Assembly (NCBI GenBank): GCA_046563655.1
Contig: CM102284.1
Coordinates: forward strand, 9,238,001 to 9,302,000
Reading direction: 5' to 3'
Source: Yuukianura sp. NJ FZ-2021
Lineage: Eukaryota
Length of the DNA: 64,000 nt
The notes under the pieces were generated by a model. It ran no database searches. It was not told where the DNA came from and saw nothing but the letters and a program-made list of their open reading frames with translations. Shown one piece after another: positions 8,747-58,800 of this stretch. The translations under genes and the position numbers were made by a program. Each line of letters begins with the position of its first letter. The first letter of the stretch is position 1.

Positions 8747-9510
8747 ATGGCTCGTGTCAATCTCGGAAACGGAGGAGTTCGTAGAGCTGGGCGACGTCGG
8801 AACCACCACTACGGTGGACCGAAAATTCGGAACGTGATGCCCGTTCGGCCCAAGAAACCTGCTTCTGCTTTCAATCTGTTCGTTCGCGGGTACTTCCGGA
8901 CTCCCATGGCTCGCAACTTTCGCTCGGTAACTTTTAGAATAACAAGAGAAGTTACAATGAATTCTGCGTTGACCTTTGACCTCTCATTCGTAGACTTCAG
9001 AGTCCATGCGCTATGCTGGACAGTACTGGCGAACGAATCCGCATCTCCATGCTCAGTACGCCCGGGAAGTCCAGACGAGCCGTGCCAACTTCCACCGTGA
9101 TCTGGAACAGTATAAACGGCGACAACAGCTGTTGAAACGTCCTGGAAATGCATACATCTACTTTGCTCGTGACCTTTGGCGCGTAAGGATTGACCTCGTG
9201 ACTTTTCAGTTGTATTGAACTCGTGAACACCACCATAACATTGTTTCTTTTGCTCTTCCAGAGTGAAGGCAGAGGTGGAACACGCACAATTCGTGAGTTC
9301 GGACGTTATGCTGGCGAGACTTGGCGCCGAATGTCACAAGCCGAACGTCAGCCTTTCATCGATCGAGCCATTCGTGCCAAAGCAACGCACAACCACATGA
9401 TCCGTGACCTCAACGCTGGAATCACCCGTGTCGACGACTACTTGCCACCAGCAGAACAAGCTCGAGTCGGCCATCAACATGCTGGCTATCCAGACGAACA
9501 AGGAAACTAA
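8747..9510 (+). CDS. Arg-rich protein with two HMG boxes (~205 aa; TFAM-like architecture or sperm-chromatin-like)
   Basis: Exons 8747-8926, 8994-9182, 9262-9510 joined in frame through GT-AG introns. Box 1: RPKKPASAFNLFVRGY..MRYAGQYWR. Box 2: KRPGNAYIYFARDLW..FGRYAGETWRRMSQAERQPFIDRA. Confidence 0.85.
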
Positions 9511-10171
9511 ACCTCTCAACAACCAAAGTACGCCCAAAAAGTATCACAACAAACAAGCATCAAGTATCAAGTACAAATTCTTATCTTTTACACAATAACG
9601 TATAATTTCAAAAAATTCGTTTAAAATTTTGAAAAATGTGATTTCAAAAAATATCGAGCAATGAAAATAACAATGTTCTTACTTTTTTTTAAGTAGTGTT
9701 GACATTTCATACTGAGCTAACGAGTCTTCCAGCATGACTGACGTTGACAGGTTATTACCGAAAGCTTTCTGAGATAACGTCACTGTGTCAATGTCAAGAA
9801 TTAAGGTCATGCTGTATGCAGTGGACTCTGGTTTTGGTGGAGGACGACCAGAAGTGACCTTGAAGATGACGTCCACATGACATATTGTCATCTGCTATTC
9901 TAATTAGTAATCTAACTTATCCTTTTGTCATGTCCAGAAACCACTTAAGTCTTCGTCTAGATCTCAACCACAAGTCCCGTTATTCCAACATTCCAAATCC
10001 ACTTGTGTAAAGTCCTCTTAAATCTTCTCAAATTTTTTCAAGTGCTAAGTGTATAGCAAAGCTAATTTCCATGGTTACTTACAAACATCTACATCCATTT
10101 TCTCCTCGAAACAGTTAAAATTTTATAGTTCTTTTTAGTTTTTAGCTTGCAATTTGACACTTTGTTCAAAA

Positions 10172-11699
10172 ATGGAAATGTTGCTTGGTGGTTCGGCGGC
10201 GGCCATGGCAGGTTGGTAACTTGCAGTAAAATAACATTCAACTTCAAAACATGAAATTTCGAAATTCCAAAAAAAAATGTTTTTTTTTGAAAACTACTTT
10301 TTGTGTGAATTTGAGGGGCGATTTGCAATCCTCTAGAAGTAATCAAAATCCGAATGCAACTACAGGGAGAACTCCAAGCCAAAGGGATGTACAGTGTCCA
10401 TTACCGGTACGCACAATGAAATATTTATATATAATATAATAACTTATTTTATTTAGATATTTATTGTTTTTAGAAACGTTTTCCATGCGACTTACCAAGT
10501 TGCCACGAAAGACGGCATCCTTGCCCTGCAGAAGGGACTGGTACCCTTCGTCTGCTACCAGTTTGCATGCAACACTGCGAGGCTTGGGTTCTACCAAATG
10601 GCTGCTCAGCGCGGACTTACGACAGATCAAGATGGAAGTGTCAACACTTTTAAAACGTTTTTGGTTGCCATGACATGTGGTGGCATCGGTGGCGTATTCT
10701 GTTCACCATTCTTTTTGGTACTTATAGGCAAATGTTCAAAATTTCGAAAAGTTTCATAATTTTGAAAATACTTGTACAAAGAATTTTGGTTTGTGCCAGG
10801 TCAAGACTCATTTGCAGTCGAAGGCCAATGCAGCAGCAATTGCCGTTGGTACGCAGCATCAACACAGCGGAATGCTGGGAGCATTCAGAACGTTTTACAA
10901 GGAAGGGGGAATATTGCGTCTCTGGAGAGGATCCAGCAGCATGGTTCCAAGAATTGCTGTAGCAAATGCTGCTCAGCTCATCAGTTTCGAAAAAAGTAAA
11001 GGTGAGGTTCGTTTTTCAAAATTTTGAAAATTCTCTTCAAAAAATTTGTGTTTTATGGAGTCAAACTAAAGTTTTAAAATTTGTGACTTCAAGTTTTTGA
11101 AACTTGTGCTGCAGTTCGGAAACTAATTACTGTGTTGAGATTTTGGGATCACAATTTTAATTTTTTTTTTTTGAATTTTGAATTTCATTTTTTCAGAATT
11201 CATGAAATTTCAGTTTCCAGACCGGCCGTGGGCAGCTTTGATTTCGGCGTGTTTTACTGCTGGATTTTTCATGGCCGTGTGTATGGCTCCATTTGACTTG
11301 ATTGCAACGCGATTCTACAATCAAAAAACCAATGCCCAGGGCAAAGGTACCCAACTTTTATTATAATATTTAATTCATTTATTTATATAAATTATTGATC
11401 TATTTATGTAAATTATTTTCTCGTACTTTATGTTACAGGGGTGATGTACAAATCAGTTCTGGAATGTATAGTGAAGGTTTACAGATCTGAAGGGCTCCTC
11501 GCCTTTTTCAAGGGCTTCACAGCCTGCTACTTTAGGTCACTTTTTTCTCAAAAACTAAACTTTTTTTTTAGAATTTCATTTCGAAATTTTGAAATTTGAT
11601 TTCAGACAAGGTCCTTACTCCCTCCTGATGCTCGTCTTCTGGGACAGACTCAAGGTCTACCACCAGTCCTGGAAAAATCAAACCGAACCGCCACGCTAG
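10172..11699 (+). CDS. SLC25A35: Mitochondrial carrier, SLC25A34/35-like
   Basis: Seven exons giving [80 protein letters not shown]; three carrier-signature repeats. Confidence 0.88.
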
Positions 11700-55785: not shown

Positions 55786-55877
55786 CTCTCTCATTCAGAT
55801 TAAAAATAATCTAACAATTAAGTTAACAAATGAAATAAATAGCACAGCAATTAAACTAAAATTAAAAATTAAAAGTG

Positions 55878-58800
55878 TTAGAATTCCCATGATTCGAGCC
55901 ACTTGAGACCATGCATGGAGCCGTTGGTTTCAGATGCCAGTGGACCAGAGGCTCCGTAGGACAGAGGAGCAAACAAGTAAAAACTAAAAACAAAATTTAA
56001 AGTTATGCTTTATGTTAAAGTGAAAATTAACTTTTACATAAAACTTTTACTTTGTTAAAATTAGCTTTTAAGGTCTTTACTTTGTTAAAATTAGGTTTTT
56101 AGTTAACTAGGGTGTACTGACCTGTAAGTGAGACTGGCGACAGTGATTCCTTGGAGCATGTGATAGAGTGACTTGACCTCGATGACCTTTGCCAGTGACG
56201 AACTGATGGAAGTGAACAAGTAGTCCAGTACTACTCCGCTCAGCATTGAAGAAAATAGAAGTGCTGGGAAGTAGTGGTGAAAGTACAGCACTCTGCCCAT
56301 TGTGTAGAATGGCAAGTAGTGCAGTGCCCACCCAAAAAACAGCCACTGGCAGGCCCACATTGTCCGCTCCCTGCGGTCTAAAAGTTTCCAAAAACTTCAA
56401 AATACTTTTCAAAATTTTCACTTCAAAATTTGGAGAGCAGCATTTGAGTAATTTTGAAGCTGACCTTTGACCTCTTGAGGTTCGACGACTCCTCGTTGCG
56501 CTTTCCAGGAATGGACGACGAACAACATCACAAAAACTGCGAGGAGGAGCAAGTTGCCCCACCAAATGATTGGATTTCCAAGGAGGTACACTCGGAACGT
56601 GTTTCCAGAGAAGTATTGACCCTGGAGTCAAAAGGTCAAGGGTTAAAGGTCATTGACCCATGGGTTAACAATGTTACATTATGGGTTAATGGGTTAGTTA
56701 CCCTGTAGTTGATAGGCCACTGCCAAGGCCTTGAAGTGACCTCTCCGTCCTTTGGTTTGAGTCCAGCGTTTCCTTCGAACATGATCGTATGAGATTCAAA
56801 AAACTTCTCTACAAAACCAGGAGCGTGCACTCGGAAACTGATATTTGGCACTAAAAATTTCAACGATGATGTCAAAATTTTGAAAATTTGAATTCAAAAT
56901 TTTTTTTTTGAAAAATTACATCTTGGGAAATAGTTTTCCTCGATATTCCAAAACGTATTTTTCTTGGTATCTCGATGGTTTGGGCTACACGCGACTTCCA
57001 TTTGTTCGTACGCCCATTTTGGCAATTGTTTCCCTGTTAAAAACATTAATTAATTGTAACATTAAGTATAATTAATTACAACATTAAATTAATTAAAAGA
57101 AGTTTATAAATTATAATATATAAAGAAAACTATGGGAAACTGCGTTCAACCTGTTCCAGTGAGAATGCAGTTTTGGAGTTGATGAAATAATTTAATTCGG
57201 CTGCTAACTACACTCACGAGGTCACCTCCCCCCGTGACCTCGATTCGCCAAATGTCATTCGCATCTCCCGTTCCATTCTAAAACACAAAGTAAAGTAACA
57301 AATCTAACATTTACTATGAATTTTAAGTTTGACCTTTGACCTTTACCTCTCCGTAGCCCGTGACCTGGTACATTTTCTTGCTGATTGGAGCAGTGACACG
57401 GTGACCATGCAGATTTCTGCGCGTGACCAAATGCTCCAGCCGAACTAAATCTCCGTTTTTAACTAGTTCGATTGGCTCAGATTCGTTGAGCAGTTGAGGA
57501 GCGTCTGCGTTGAATTTCTTGATGATCCACTTGTTATTGTCATCTTTATGAGCATAAGTTGTGATCTGTTCAAAGGTCAAAGGTCAACGACTTTAATTTC
57601 TTGTGACCTTGAATTCTAACGTACCTGTTGCTGTCTAGCTCCGATTCCCTCGGGGTACAAGTGCCAATGAGAGTGCAGGTACCTAAAAAACAAAATTTCT
57701 AAATTGTACATTTTCAAAAAACAAAATTTCAAAAGAGGTCAAAGGTCAAGTACCCTCCTCCAGTCCTTTGACTTTTGATGGTGACAATGCTTCCATAGGC
57801 AACTTCTCTTGGCATACTGGCGTTGTACAGAGCATTTCCTATCAACTGACTCTGAAACCCAGAACTGTAAAATCCATCTCCGTTTCCACTAAAATTTTAA
57901 AATTTAAAGTGTTTCATAATTTCAAAATCTAGTTAATTGTTAAATTATACTCCAACCTGCGATTGAGTACTGTGAGGTGAATGTAGAAAATTGAAATGTA
58001 GAGGCCGATTGGGAGGAAGATGAGGCAGACGGCACGAGCCAAAAAGTGCTGCACACTGTACCACTGTTAAATTAATAAGTAAAGTAATTAATTAAATAGT
58101 TAATTACTAATTAGTTTTAATTAACTATTTGAACAATTGCCGAGAGAAAACTTGTTTGAATATTTGTAGCTGTTTAAATTGAGATAAACTTACGAGTGGC
58201 TTTGAGAGATCTCCGAGTATTTCCCACAGTTCAGCAGTCGCTCTCAGCCCGACGTATAAAACAGTAAAGAGACCAACAAATTTCACACTGATGGCACACG
58301 TCAACGAAATCCCTGTCAACGTCAACCACGTCCACCACTTCATACTGAATGGCCTGAGATCAAAATTTCAAAATTTAAAATTTAAATTTTTTTTGAAAAC
58401 TTTGTTTTTGGAAATAGTCTGACTGTGTTTTGTAAGAGTAGAACTTGAATGAGGAGTAGACTGATGACAAGATGAAGAAGAGCAGGATGGGGTCAAGTAG
58501 AATGTATTGACCCAAGGTCACCAAACCCACGTCCAGCAGAATCAGCATGGAGGACATGATGGACGCTGTCATGGATCCACTCAACTCCCACGTCGTCAGG
58601 TACGAAAGTGGCACCAACAGAGCACTCAGACTCGTACAACACTAAGAAACATAAATTACATAAATTACATAAATTACATAACAAAAATGATGCAGAGGTC
58701 ATGACCCCTGGGGGACTTACTACTCGCATGCCGAGGTACTTTGTTTCATTGTACTTTTGACCAGGAGACTCAAACGGAAACCGCCCATCGTACCCCGTCA

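What the first reader, a model, noticed from the sequence alone, without database searches (positions are those of the whole stretch)
8970..57748. Perfect DR1 motif AGGTCAAAGGTCA is strongly enriched and clusters at splice sites in either orientation
Seen: at least 15 exact copies of TGACCTTTGACCT or its reverse complement, at 8970, 18506, 19822, 20049, 20478, 27778, 36898, 44361, 50623, 52103, 53078, 56461, 57330, 57574 and 57736, plus many 1-2 mismatch versions (8719, 37376, 56626, 60295, 61656). A rough base-composition estimate predicts far below one copy in 64 kb. Nine lie at or near exon-intron junctions in six unrelated genes: beside acceptors (8970, 20049, 57574), near donors (27778, 44361, 57330, 57736), or overlapping the donor GT (52103; 56461 reads AG|GTCAAAGGTCA). 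Flanks show no shared TE sequence. Established: this is the canonical DR1 element of HNF4, COUP-TF/Seven-up and RXR/USP nuclear receptors. Inference: orientation independence points to a DNA-level signal, such as receptor-bound exon-boundary or nucleosome marking, or a motif-seeding process tied to intron formation.
Basis: partly seen in the sequence, partly recalled or inferred. Interest (0 to 1): 0.8.

Follow-up and report, generated by a model that had tools for sequence, protein, structure and literature searches.

The report
DR1 motif crowding short springtail introns
A 13-base sequence identical to the ideal docking site of one class of hormone-receptor proteins, and its 6-base half, are far too frequent in this stretch of a probable springtail genome, above all in its very short introns, and the cause is still open.

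Summary
All 15 exact TGACCTTTGACCT copies sit at the stated coordinates (0 expected). The signal is wider than reported. The half-site AGGTCA is the most over-represented hexamer in the window (138 vs ~30): about 10x in introns and 3-4x in exons and other DNA. In coding sequence it exceeds synonymous-codon shuffles (40 vs 13.1 +/- 3.4). Only the exact hexamer is raised; one-mismatch neighbours are flat. Half-sites pair almost only as direct repeats 7 nt apart (17 vs 0.15 expected).

The window is an arthropod, probably a collembolan, with introns of ~60-130 nt. Nine to eleven copies are intronic, in both orientations. Closeness to splice sites is mostly a result of intron shortness; the extra bias towards intron ends is weak (P ~0.02). 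Exonic half-sites do not favour exon ends. Four of five motif-bearing POMT2 introns occupy positions shared with other taxa, and relatives lack the motif. So the enrichment is lineage-specific and not tied to intron birth.

Best reading (about 0.4): double-stranded binding sites for a factor that prefers DR1 sites, multiplied by local 7-nt duplication. A neutral dispersed heptamer repeat is the main rival. The pattern rests on one window, with no RNA data and no whole genome.

The parts
8970..8982 (+). Exact 13-mer in a 67-nt intron of an HMG-box gene (+). Sense strand reads TGACCT...; it ends 11 nt before the 3' splice site.
18506..18518 (+). Exact 13-mer. It was called exonic in a weak gene model, but it more likely lies in a ~2.6-kb intron of PKA-like kinase gene 1 (-).
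19822..19834 (+). Exact 13-mer, 45 nt downstream of the donor TAG|GTCAAA in the same long intron. Sense strand reads AGGTCA...
20049..20061 (-). Exact 13-mer in a 70-nt intron (-). Sense strand reads TGACCT...; it ends 5 nt before the 3' splice site.
20478..20490 (+). Exact 13-mer outside any gene model, upstream of the kinase gene's first modelled exon.
27777..27837 (+). Array of 8.7 heptamer units (85% matches) filling a 97-nt intron of an arrestin-like gene (-). It contains the exact copy at 27778-27790. Sense strand reads AGGTCA..., starting about 6 nt after the donor.
36898..36910 (-). Exact 13-mer outside any gene model, with a partial third unit.
44357..44377 (+). Three-unit array that includes the exact copy at 44361-44373, in a 66-nt intron of aminopeptidase N (-). 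Sense strand reads AGGTCA..., 17 nt after the donor ACG|GTCAGT.
50623..50635 (-). Exact 13-mer between two divergently oriented genes: an acyltransferase-like gene (-) and a lipase gene (+).
52103..52120 (+). Exact 13-mer plus a partial third unit at the start of a 131-nt lipase intron (+). The donor is CAG|GTGACC, so the donor T is the first base of the motif. The junction reads RIT-G-LDPAGP.
53078..53090 (-). Exact 13-mer about 140 nt downstream of the lipase stop codon.
56461..56473 (+). Exact 13-mer straddling a POMT2 donor (-). The exon ends ...AGGTCAAAG and the intron begins GTCAGC.
56633..56652 (-). Degenerate version (TGACCTttaaccctTGACCT) just before the 3' splice site of an 80-nt POMT2 intron.
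57330..57342 (+). Exact 13-mer in a 69-nt POMT2 intron. Sense strand reads GTAA+AGGTCAAAGGTCA, starting at intron position +4.
57574..57586 (-). Exact 13-mer in a 59-nt POMT2 intron. Sense strand reads TGACCT...; it ends 8 nt before the AG. An inverted single half-site lies near the intron's 5' end.
57736..57748 (-). Exact 13-mer in a 71-nt POMT2 intron. Sense strand reads GTACT+TGACCT... This is the only motif-bearing POMT2 intron at a position not seen in any other locus.
8413..8426 (-). Direct pair of half-sites at spacing 8 (TGACCTCTTGACCT).
25545..25558 (+). Direct pair of half-sites at spacing 8 (TGACCTCGTGACCT).
33389..33402 (+). Direct pair of half-sites at spacing 8.
35626..35671 (+). 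Two direct pairs at spacing 8, lying 32 nt apart.
8718..8730 (+). One-mismatch copy (TCACCTTTGACCT).
22975..22987 (+). One-mismatch copy with a C spacer.
32741..32753 (-). One-mismatch copy.
37375..37387 (+). One-mismatch copy (CGACCTTTGACCT).
51123..51135 (-). One-mismatch copy.
60295..60307 (-). One-mismatch copy with a C spacer.
1..64000 (.). Dispersed single half-sites AGGTCA/TGACCT: 138 in all, 104 of them outside exact spacing-7 pairs, with flank preference R-AGGTCA-M.

Best explanation
AGGTCA, and its direct repeat at 7-nt spacing (AGGTCA-A-AGGTCA, the DR1 arrangement), act here as double-stranded DNA recognition sites. The binding protein would prefer direct-repeat dimers, most simply a nuclear receptor of the DR1-binding class (HNF4, USP/RXR, Svp/COUP-TF, HR78/TR2-4).

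In this springtail lineage such sites have been multiplied inside gene bodies. Single half-sites are kept in exons through synonymous codon choice. Full dimers build up where there is no coding cost, mainly in the very short introns. Dimers arise by local tandem duplication of a unit that already holds a half-site (7 nt, sometimes 8), and they occasionally grow into short arrays.

Closeness to splice sites is secondary. Introns are only ~60-130 nt long. The pyrimidine-rich, branch-point-like strand (TTGAC, CCTTT) is tolerated next to acceptors. The other strand (AG|GTCA) resembles the GTCAG-type donors this genome uses.

Shown: the enrichment, its exactness, its strand symmetry, the spacing rule, the compartment distribution and the lineage specificity. 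Inferred: protein binding, the identity of the protein, selection as the retaining force, and any regulatory or chromatin outcome.
For: 1. Strand symmetry. Introns hold 20 sense TGACCT and 21 sense AGGTCA half-sites.
2. Excess in coding DNA. There are 40 half-sites in 18,561 nt of CDS, against 13.1 +/- 3.4 (maximum 25) in 300 synonymous-codon shuffles, and both strands are raised. AGGTCA ranks 2nd of 4,096 hexamers, behind only a word from a low-complexity repeat. In the homology-verified POMT2 exons the count is 11 against 2.2.
3. Synonymous origin. At 4 of the 6 exonic POMT2 sites covered by the closest relative, L001, the amino acids are the same and only this genome's synonymous codons spell the hexamer.
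4. A spacing rule typical of dimer sites. Direct pairs at spacing 7 number 17, and at spacing 8 number 5, against 0.15 expected per spacing. Inverted and everted pairs total 6 over all spacings up to 40 nt.
5. Not generic slippage. This one unit makes up 15 of the 35 perfect heptamer tandem duplications; the next unit has 3.
6. Independent origins. A second direct-repeat class with a different unit (TGACCTC[G/T]TGACCT) points to separate local duplications and not to one pasted master copy.
7. No decay halo. The 18 one-mismatch neighbours have a median observed/expected ratio of 0.89.
8. Uneven use among genes. Chi-square 54.5, 22 df, p = 1e-4; POMT2 holds 23 half-sites in 3.3 kb.
9. The sequence equals the ideal DR1 element used for TR4 DNA-binding-domain structures.
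Against: - Half-site variants that nuclear receptors tolerate are not raised (GGGTCA 1.37, AGTTCA 0.84). Natural receptor targets are usually imperfect (PMC9943680, passage).
- The density, one perfect DR1 per ~4 kb and one half-site per ~460 bp, is far above ordinary regulons (recalled, not measured here).
- Array-like features suit a repeat better than a discrete site: 4 of 15 copies continue as TTGA, and one array has 8.7 units.
- The motif is not conserved. L001, about 80% identical in protein, has 0 half-sites in 2,338 nt, and 18 of 19 POMT2 loci from other organisms lack the 13-mer.
- Exon and intron densities per gene are not significantly correlated (Spearman 0.24, p = 0.36).
- Four of 15 copies share an extra upstream CGT (0.11 expected; a post hoc observation), which could mean copy-and-paste of a longer unit.
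- All of this comes from one 64-kb window. Gene models outside POMT2 are my own predictions, made without RNA evidence.
Confidence: 0.4

Rival explanations
1. The motif is a neutral or selfish dispersed heptamer micro-repeat. (AAGGTCA)n would be a simple 7-bp repeat of this genome. Short pieces get seeded into non-coding DNA, by slippage or as filler DNA from an abundant satellite or telomere-like source during break repair, and then decay. It has no function, and introns simply tolerate it.
For: - The period-7 structure runs from 2 to 8.7 units, with partial third units.
- Perfect copies outnumber independent one-mismatch copies, about 15 to 6, as a recent burst would give.
- Flanks are unrelated and both orientations occur.
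- The enrichment is lineage-specific.
- Contigs from elsewhere in the same sample align to the motif copies and then diverge, so other loci carry the motif too.
- Four of 15 copies share a 16-nt form.
Against: - It does not explain the threefold excess of single exact hexamers at synonymous sites in exons on both strands.
- It does not explain why one-mismatch neighbours show no excess.
- It does not explain the second class at spacing 8.
- It does not explain why introns carry about twice the half-site density of other non-coding DNA (3.2 vs 1.4 per kb), though that 'intergenic' class includes long introns and young repeats.
- Two-unit heptamers are too short for ordinary slippage (established knowledge, recalled).
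Confidence: 0.3
2. The motif works at the RNA level in splicing. AG|GTCA would serve as a donor or donor enhancer, and UUGAC-CCUUU as a branch point plus pyrimidine tract, so the motif helps define very short introns.
For: - The enrichment is about tenfold in introns, against 3-4x elsewhere.
- Fourteen of 15 junction-spanning half-sites read AGGTCA in the sense strand.
- GTCAG donors make up 3 of 13 homology-mapped POMT2 donors and 4 of 10 predicted APN donors.
- Of 18 sense TGACCT half-sites in short introns, 9 end 5-25 nt before the 3' splice site, whereas sense AGGTCA never ends closer than 15 nt.
- TTGAC fits yUnAy and is among the commoner such words at -45 to -10 (12 occurrences, against 31 for TTAAT).
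- There is a modest bias towards intron ends (P ~0.02).
Against: - An RNA signal should be strand-specific. Yet introns hold both orientations equally (20:21), both orientations occur next to donors, and exons and non-genic DNA show a symmetric excess.
- Only 21 of 92 short introns carry any half-site.
- Relatives splice the orthologous introns without the motif.
- The asymmetry at the 3' end follows from the known avoidance of AG upstream of acceptors (established knowledge, recalled).

This is probably a real secondary use or constraint, not the driver.
Confidence: 0.12
3. The copies are transposon-related: decayed fragments of one TE or MITE family, introner-type elements that create introns, or 7-bp target-site duplications left behind after excision.
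For: An exact 7+7 duplication with unrelated flanks is what an excision footprint of a 7-bp-TSD element would look like (inference). One motif-bearing POMT2 intron, at aa 322.7, is unique to this lineage.
Against: - The flanks share no sequence.
- No insertion flanked by the heptamer and carrying terminal inverted repeats was found (0 candidates).
- The one clear mobile element here, the foldback at 4024-7862, has a 9-10-bp TAACAAAAG(A) duplication unrelated to the motif.
- Four of five motif-bearing POMT2 introns are at shared, presumably old, positions.
- The exonic hexamer excess is left unexplained.
Confidence: 0.05

Closest known systems
Nuclear-receptor DR1 response elements (HNF4, RXR/USP, COUP-TF/Svp, TR2/TR4/HR78, PPAR-RXR)
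   Same: The sequence is identical to the ideal element: two AGGTCA half-sites, direct orientation, one-A spacer (PMC9943680, passages read). Only direct repeats are in excess here, with spacing 7 far ahead of spacing 8, and there is no palindrome class.
   Different: - Known elements are sparse, degenerate, mostly in promoters or enhancers, and often conserved.
- Here they are exact, extremely dense, concentrated in short introns throughout gene bodies, and often continue into a third unit.
- They come with a hexamer excess at synonymous sites.
- They are absent from the orthologous gene of a relative.
- Binding has not been tested.
Simple heptanucleotide repeats and dispersed short satellite arrays, such as the 7-bp satellites of Drosophila virilis and short interstitial telomere-like repeats (recalled, no call)
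   Same: Head-to-tail 7-nt units, 2 to 8.7 copies, unrelated flanks, either orientation, lineage-specific.
   Different: Most arrays have only two units. One unit accounts for 15 of the 35 heptamer duplications. The single hexamer is also raised inside coding sequence. No long array was seen.
Periodic An/Tn clusters (PATCs) in Caenorhabditis elegans introns, and intron-mediated enhancement signals (recalled, no call)
   Same: A lineage-specific, orientation-independent DNA-level signal concentrated in the introns of some genes and not others.
   Different: The sequence and periodicity are entirely different. PATCs are long AT-phased tracts, not an exact GC-containing hexamer. No link to expression or silencing was tested here.
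Chromosome-wide recognition motifs (Drosophila MSL recognition elements, C. elegans MEX/rex motifs) and bacterial over-represented oligomers (Chi, DNA uptake sequences) (recalled, no call)
   Same: An exact short word held at high density across genes, including coding sequence, beyond what composition or codon usage predicts.
   Different: No chromosome assignment, no known binding complex, and no uptake or recombination system is known for this organism. This is an analogy only.
Spliceosomal signals (5' splice site, branch point, pyrimidine tract)
   Same: AG|GTCA is used as a donor at several junctions. TTGAC-CCTTT sits where branch point and pyrimidine tract are expected in 3 to 4 introns.
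   Different: The overall excess is strand-symmetric, and it is also found in exons and non-genic DNA.

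Membership tests
Nuclear-receptor DR1 response element | Two RGKTCA half-sites in direct orientation | tested here: met
   15 exact AGGTCA-N-AGGTCA copies. 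There are 17 direct pairs at spacing 7, against 0.15 expected. Inverted and everted pairs total 6 over all spacings up to 40 nt.
Nuclear-receptor DR1 response element | One-nucleotide spacer | tested here: met
   The spacer is A (in the AGGTCA orientation) in 15 of the 17 spacing-7 pairs and G in the other 2. This matches the ideal DR1 element described in PMC9943680.
Nuclear-receptor DR1 response element | Bound by a nuclear-receptor dimer | not testable with these tools
   This needs EMSA or DAP-seq with the species' receptors, or ChIP/CUT&Tag.
Nuclear-receptor DR1 response element | Confers receptor-dependent regulation on the host gene | not testable with these tools
   No expression data are available; no RNA run was listed.
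Nuclear-receptor DR1 response element | The usual family behaviour: tolerated half-site variants are also used, and sites are conserved at orthologous loci | tested here: not met
   GGGTCA is at 1.37x and AGTTCA at 0.84x, against 4.68x for AGGTCA. L001 has 0 half-sites, and 18 of 19 POMT2 loci lack the 13-mer.
Heptanucleotide microsatellite / dispersed simple repeat | Head-to-tail copies of one short unit | tested here: met
   TRF reports period-7 arrays of 2.1 to 8.7 units at the copies.
Heptanucleotide microsatellite / dispersed simple repeat | Arises by generic slippage, with no dependence on unit sequence | tested here: not met
   15 of the 35 perfect heptamer duplications are this one unit; the next most common unit has 3.
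Heptanucleotide microsatellite / dispersed simple repeat | Unit-number polymorphism between alleles or strains | tested here: inconclusive
   Contigs break or diverge at several copies (44377, 52148, 53073, 57344, 57574), but the output does not resolve unit number.
Transposable element, MITE or introner | Shared internal or terminal sequence, terminal inverted repeats, target-site duplication | tested here: not met
   No shared flanks. No heptamer-flanked inverted-repeat insertions, 0 candidates.
Transposable element, MITE or introner | Motif-bearing introns are lineage-specific gains | tested here: not met
   Four of five motif-bearing POMT2 introns (aa 342, 415, 545, 597) share their position with other loci. 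Only aa 322.7 is unique.
Spliceosomal cis-signal | Strand-specific occurrence relative to transcription | tested here: not met
   Introns hold 20 TGACCT and 21 AGGTCA in the sense strand. Exons hold 16 and 24, both above the shuffle means of 5.9 and 7.2. Only the junction subset is strand-specific (14 of 15).
Spliceosomal cis-signal | Fixed position relative to splice sites | tested here: inconclusive
   Of 25 elements in short introns, 56% lie within 12 nt of an intron end, against 34% under the null (P ~0.02). For the DR elements, n = 9 and P = 0.066. The intron boundaries are partly my own predictions.

The most novel reading that the evidence does not exclude
The exact hexamer and its DR1 dimer form a lineage-specific 'gene-body code'. 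In this reading the word is kept at high density in introns, and even at synonymous codon positions, because a DR1-binding receptor-like protein reads it over whole genes or whole chromosomes. Possible uses are dosage compensation, licensing against silencing, or marking chromosomes for the programmed chromosome elimination described in some springtails (recalled, no call). This would be a eukaryotic counterpart of the MSL or rex recognition motifs, built from a nuclear-receptor site.
Probability: 0.1. Interest if true: 0.9.

Novelty: new variant of a known kind. Interest (0 to 1): 0.6.

Why it matters
If the excess is maintained by selection, an animal genome is keeping thousands of perfect nuclear-receptor sites inside gene bodies and shaping synonymous codon choice to do so. 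That would be a new mode of use for a very well-studied DNA element. It would also be an unusual constraint on coding sequence and on the content of minimal introns.

If the excess is neutral, it is a clean case of one specific heptamer spreading through short introns. It would then show how such material gets co-opted as donor, branch-point or pyrimidine-tract sequence.

Either way, it makes a sharp, testable prediction for whole-genome counts in springtails. I found no report of it. The exact 13-mer occurs in 15 papers, by title all on nuclear-receptor biology or unrelated topics (one read). Three further searches on intronic or springtail motif enrichment found nothing. Supplementary files were not consulted.

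Tried and rejected
- **Whole genome:** none is held, so every background is within the window.
- **k-mer script:** the first version timed out and was rerun.
- **RNA evidence:** no RNA holder is listed among the 5 runs found.
- **Laying DNA contigs of 3 runs:** the contigs are fragmentary. The output gives no base-level view of the motif sites, so neither conservation in the second organism nor unit-number polymorphism could be read.
- **Codon-usage scoring of stop-free segments:** too weak to annotate with.
- **Simple ORF-bridging intron finder:** it over-predicted (456 introns) and hit only 3 of 13 known introns exactly, so it was dropped.
- **First DP parser settings:** they over-predicted or chained genes through long introns. 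The final parse still got only about 10 of 13 POMT2 intron lengths right, so POMT2 was replaced by the homology map. Its 'intergenic' class includes long introns, for example of the arrestin-like gene.
- **Aminopeptidase homologue search:** it returned only 1 distant plant protein.
- **Excision-footprint idea:** 0 candidates. The foldback element's target duplication is unrelated.
- **Intron-bridging hairpins:** only 1 of the 21 half-site-bearing short introns holds both orientations, and inverted pairs are at chance level.
- **Exon-boundary marking:** exonic sites are not near junctions.
- **Long-range phasing:** none beyond clustering under ~50 nt.
- **The exact 13-mer in L019:** it is ordinary coding sequence (…V-R-S-K-V-K-L…), a coincidence.
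- **Rfam:** 0 matches.
- **Earlier scan notes:** nothing relevant in 5 look-ups.

Full report
**1. The observation**

None of 100 dinucleotide-preserving shuffles produced a single match. Markov models of order 1, 3 and 5 built from the window expect 0.00, 0.01 and 0.16 copies.

Four of the five listed near-copies are real. The one at 61656 is not: its best match has 4 mismatches. With the motif masked, the +/-150-nt flanks match one another only where neighbouring copies physically overlap, plus two trivial AT-rich hits. The claim of no shared transposon sequence therefore holds.

**2. The signal is wider than the 13-mer**

- The half-site AGGTCA/TGACCT occurs 138 times, against about 30 expected (order-2 Markov). 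It is the most over-represented hexamer in the window, at 4.7x, or 5.3x after masking the large tandem and foldback repeats.
- Only the exact word is raised. Its 18 one-mismatch neighbours have a median observed/expected ratio of 0.89. That includes the receptor-tolerated variants GGGTCA (1.37) and AGTTCA (0.84).
- Half-sites pair almost only as direct repeats. There are 17 pairs at spacing 7 and 5 at spacing 8, against 0.15 expected per spacing at the observed half-site density. Inverted and everted pairs total 6 over all spacings up to 40 nt.
- The 13-mer is two units of a 7-nt tandem unit. Four of 15 copies continue as TTGA, one locus has three units, and one has 8.7 units.
- This one unit makes up 15 of the 35 perfect heptamer tandem duplications in the window; the next most common unit has 3. 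Generic slippage does not explain it.
- Single half-sites prefer the flanks R-AGGTCA-M.
- Four of 15 copies share an additional upstream CGT (0.11 expected; a post hoc observation).

**3. Organism and gene models**

No whole genome is held for this window, and no RNA run was listed.

POMT2 homologues place the window in arthropods. The spliced POMT2 protein is 70.6% identical to that of the springtail Orchesella cincta, against about 62% for insects. The source is therefore probably a collembolan.

Homology-guided splicing gives POMT2 13 introns of 59-138 nt.

For the rest of the window I wrote a dynamic-programming gene parser that I trained on the window itself. It is imperfect. On POMT2, the gene it was first trained on, the final run got about 10 of 13 intron lengths right, so I replaced its POMT2 model with the homology map. 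The resulting map has about 23.9 kb of exon, 12.7 kb of intron in 104 introns (median 84 nt), and 27.5 kb of other DNA. That last class certainly includes some long introns and young repeats.

Conserved protein motifs across junctions support several calls made outside POMT2. Examples are RIT-G-LDPAGP in the lipase and the kinase-domain start in the kinase gene.

**4. Where the copies lie**

Nine exact copies are wholly inside predicted introns, and one (56461) straddles a donor. One (18506) fell in a weak exon model that one search shows to be part of a ~2.6-kb kinase intron. Four are outside gene models.

Relative to transcription, five intronic copies read TGACCT... and five read AGGTCA... 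At 56461 the exon ends ...AGGTCAAAG and the second half-site supplies the GT.

Five of the 13 POMT2 introns carry an exact copy, a straddling copy or a degenerate copy.

**5. Compartments**

| Compartment | Half-sites observed | Expected (order 2) |
|---|---|---|
| Introns | 41 | 4.2 |
| Exons | 44 | 11.6 |
| Other DNA | 38 | 10.5 |
| Spanning an exon/intron junction | 15 | not computed |

Fourteen of the 15 junction-spanning half-sites read AGGTCA in the sense strand. That fits an unusual frequency of GTCAG donors: 3 of 13 in POMT2 and 4 of 10 predicted in the aminopeptidase gene.

Inside introns the two orientations are equal, 20 to 21.

**6. Coding sequence**

Shuffling synonymous codons within each of 13 CDS models (18,561 nt) gives 13.1 +/- 3.4 half-sites, with a maximum of 25 in 300 shuffles. 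The observed count is 40, and both strands are raised.

When all 4,096 hexamers are treated the same way, AGGTCA ranks second. The only word above it comes from a low-complexity repeat.

In the homology-verified POMT2 exons the count is 11 against 2.2. At 4 of the 6 POMT2 sites covered by the closest relative, the amino acids are identical and only this genome uses the codons that spell the hexamer. This points to a force acting on DNA, not on RNA or protein.

**7. Splice-site clustering**

Introns are so short that any intronic element lies near a junction.

- Against uniform placement within the same introns, 56% of 25 elements lie within 12 nt of an intron end, compared with 34% (P ~0.02).
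- For the nine multi-unit elements the median distance is 8 nt (P = 0.066).
- Sense AGGTCA never ends closer than 15 nt to an acceptor, whereas sense TGACCT often does. That is what avoidance of AG upstream of acceptors would produce (established knowledge, recalled).
- On the exon side there is no boundary preference: median 91 nt against a null of 73 (P = 0.92).
- There is no long-range phasing.

**8. Relation to intron origin, and conservation**

A metagenome scan returned 19 POMT2 loci from other organisms. Only one carries the 13-mer, and there it is ordinary coding sequence. Their half-site counts sum to 62, against 37 expected. The closest locus, L001, is genomic and about 80% identical, and it has none in 2,338 nt.

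Intron positions were compared through the boundaries of ungapped tblastn blocks:
- The motif-bearing POMT2 introns at aa 342, 415, 545 and 597 share their position with other loci.
- Only the intron at aa 322.7 is unique to this window.
- L001 lacks five of this gene's introns, four of them motif-bearing.

The motif was therefore mostly acquired by existing introns in this lineage. It does not mark new introns.

**9. Transposons**

No insertion flanked by the heptamer and carrying terminal inverted repeats exists in the window. The foldback element at 4024-7862 has an unrelated 9-10-bp target duplication.

**10. Interpretation**

Four features fit a site read on double-stranded DNA by a dimer that prefers direct repeats:
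- strand symmetry;
- an excess at synonymous sites;
- exactness with no halo of decayed copies;
- a direct-repeat-only spacing rule with two unit lengths.

The sequence is the ideal DR1 element.

Four features fit a young dispersed repeat better:
- tolerated variants are not raised;
- the density is extreme;
- the copies extend into arrays;
- the motif is absent from the relatives examined.

I give the binding-site reading about 0.4, the neutral repeat about 0.3, RNA-level splicing as the main driver about 0.12, and a transposon origin about 0.05. Use of the two strands as donor-like and branch-point-like sequence is probably a real secondary effect.

**11. Limits**

Everything rests on one 64-kb window. 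There is no genome-wide background, no RNA evidence and no readable population or sister-species data. Gene models outside POMT2 are my own. Half-site counts vary strongly between genes (chi-square p = 1e-4), so extrapolating to the whole genome is uncertain.

On the literature, I saw search listings for and read passages of PMC9943680. I consulted no supplementary files.

Noticed in passing
window 4024-7862: A foldback-type mobile element. Its inverted arms are about 1.1 kb long and 98-100% complementary. They are built from 146-nt repeats and tandem 14-mers (33 and 15 copies), around a central array of about 60 copies of a 22-mer. The element is flanked by a 9-10-bp direct duplication, TAACAAAAG(A).
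   Followed up: partly
window 56121, 56464, 58423 (POMT2); 43800, 44192, 44390, 44683 (aminopeptidase N): 5' splice sites of the form GTCAG(T), with C at intron position +3, look unusually common: 3 of 13 homology-mapped POMT2 donors and 4 of 10 predicted aminopeptidase donors. In my self-trained intron set 19 of 87 donors have C at +3, but that figure may be inflated by training bias. RNA-seq is needed to confirm.
   Followed up: partly
L001:1155-1586 compared with window 57890-57341: The closest POMT2 relative found (about 80% identical) has one continuous ORF where this window has three exons. It lacks five of this gene's 13 introns (aa 322.7, 342, 457.3, 545, 597.3). Four of these positions (all except 322.7, and 457.3 only approximately) have introns in other loci, so the relative has probably lost introns.
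   Followed up: partly
window 33626-33826 and 34105-34308: Two arrays of a 15-16-nt unit (GGTCGCAAGTAAAAA), about 11 copies each, in inverted orientation about 280 nt apart. This is a second foldback-like structure, lying inside what is probably a long intron of the arrestin-like gene.
   Followed up: no
window 60653-61291: A near-perfect tandem repeat of a 45-nt unit, about 14 copies, open in two reading frames (…[15 protein letters not shown]…). It sits between exons that encode the N- and C-terminal halves of a GST-zeta-like protein. It is probably an intronic minisatellite and not coding sequence.
   Followed up: no
window 15529-20216 and 22584-25831: Two tandem PKA-like kinase paralogues on the minus strand, with a TAF10-like gene between them (21352-21842). 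Each kinase has a long intron just before the kinase-domain exon.
   Followed up: no
window 8413, 25545, 33389, 35626, 35658: A second direct-repeat class of the same half-site at spacing 8 (TGACCTC[G/T]TGACCT), 5 copies against 0.15 expected.
   Followed up: partly
window 8967, 27775, 50636, 57587 (the three bases upstream of the copy, read on the motif strand): Four of the 15 exact copies share an extra CGT immediately upstream, giving a common 16-mer (0.11 expected; a post hoc observation).
   Followed up: partly
window 18613-18688: A perfect 2.3-copy tandem repeat of a 33-nt unit, about 100 nt from the exact copy at 18506.
   Followed up: no
window 40000-59999 (contigs of runs X1 and X2): The sample that holds this DNA shows many single-base differences carried by about half of the depth. 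This suggests two quite divergent haplotypes.
   Followed up: no
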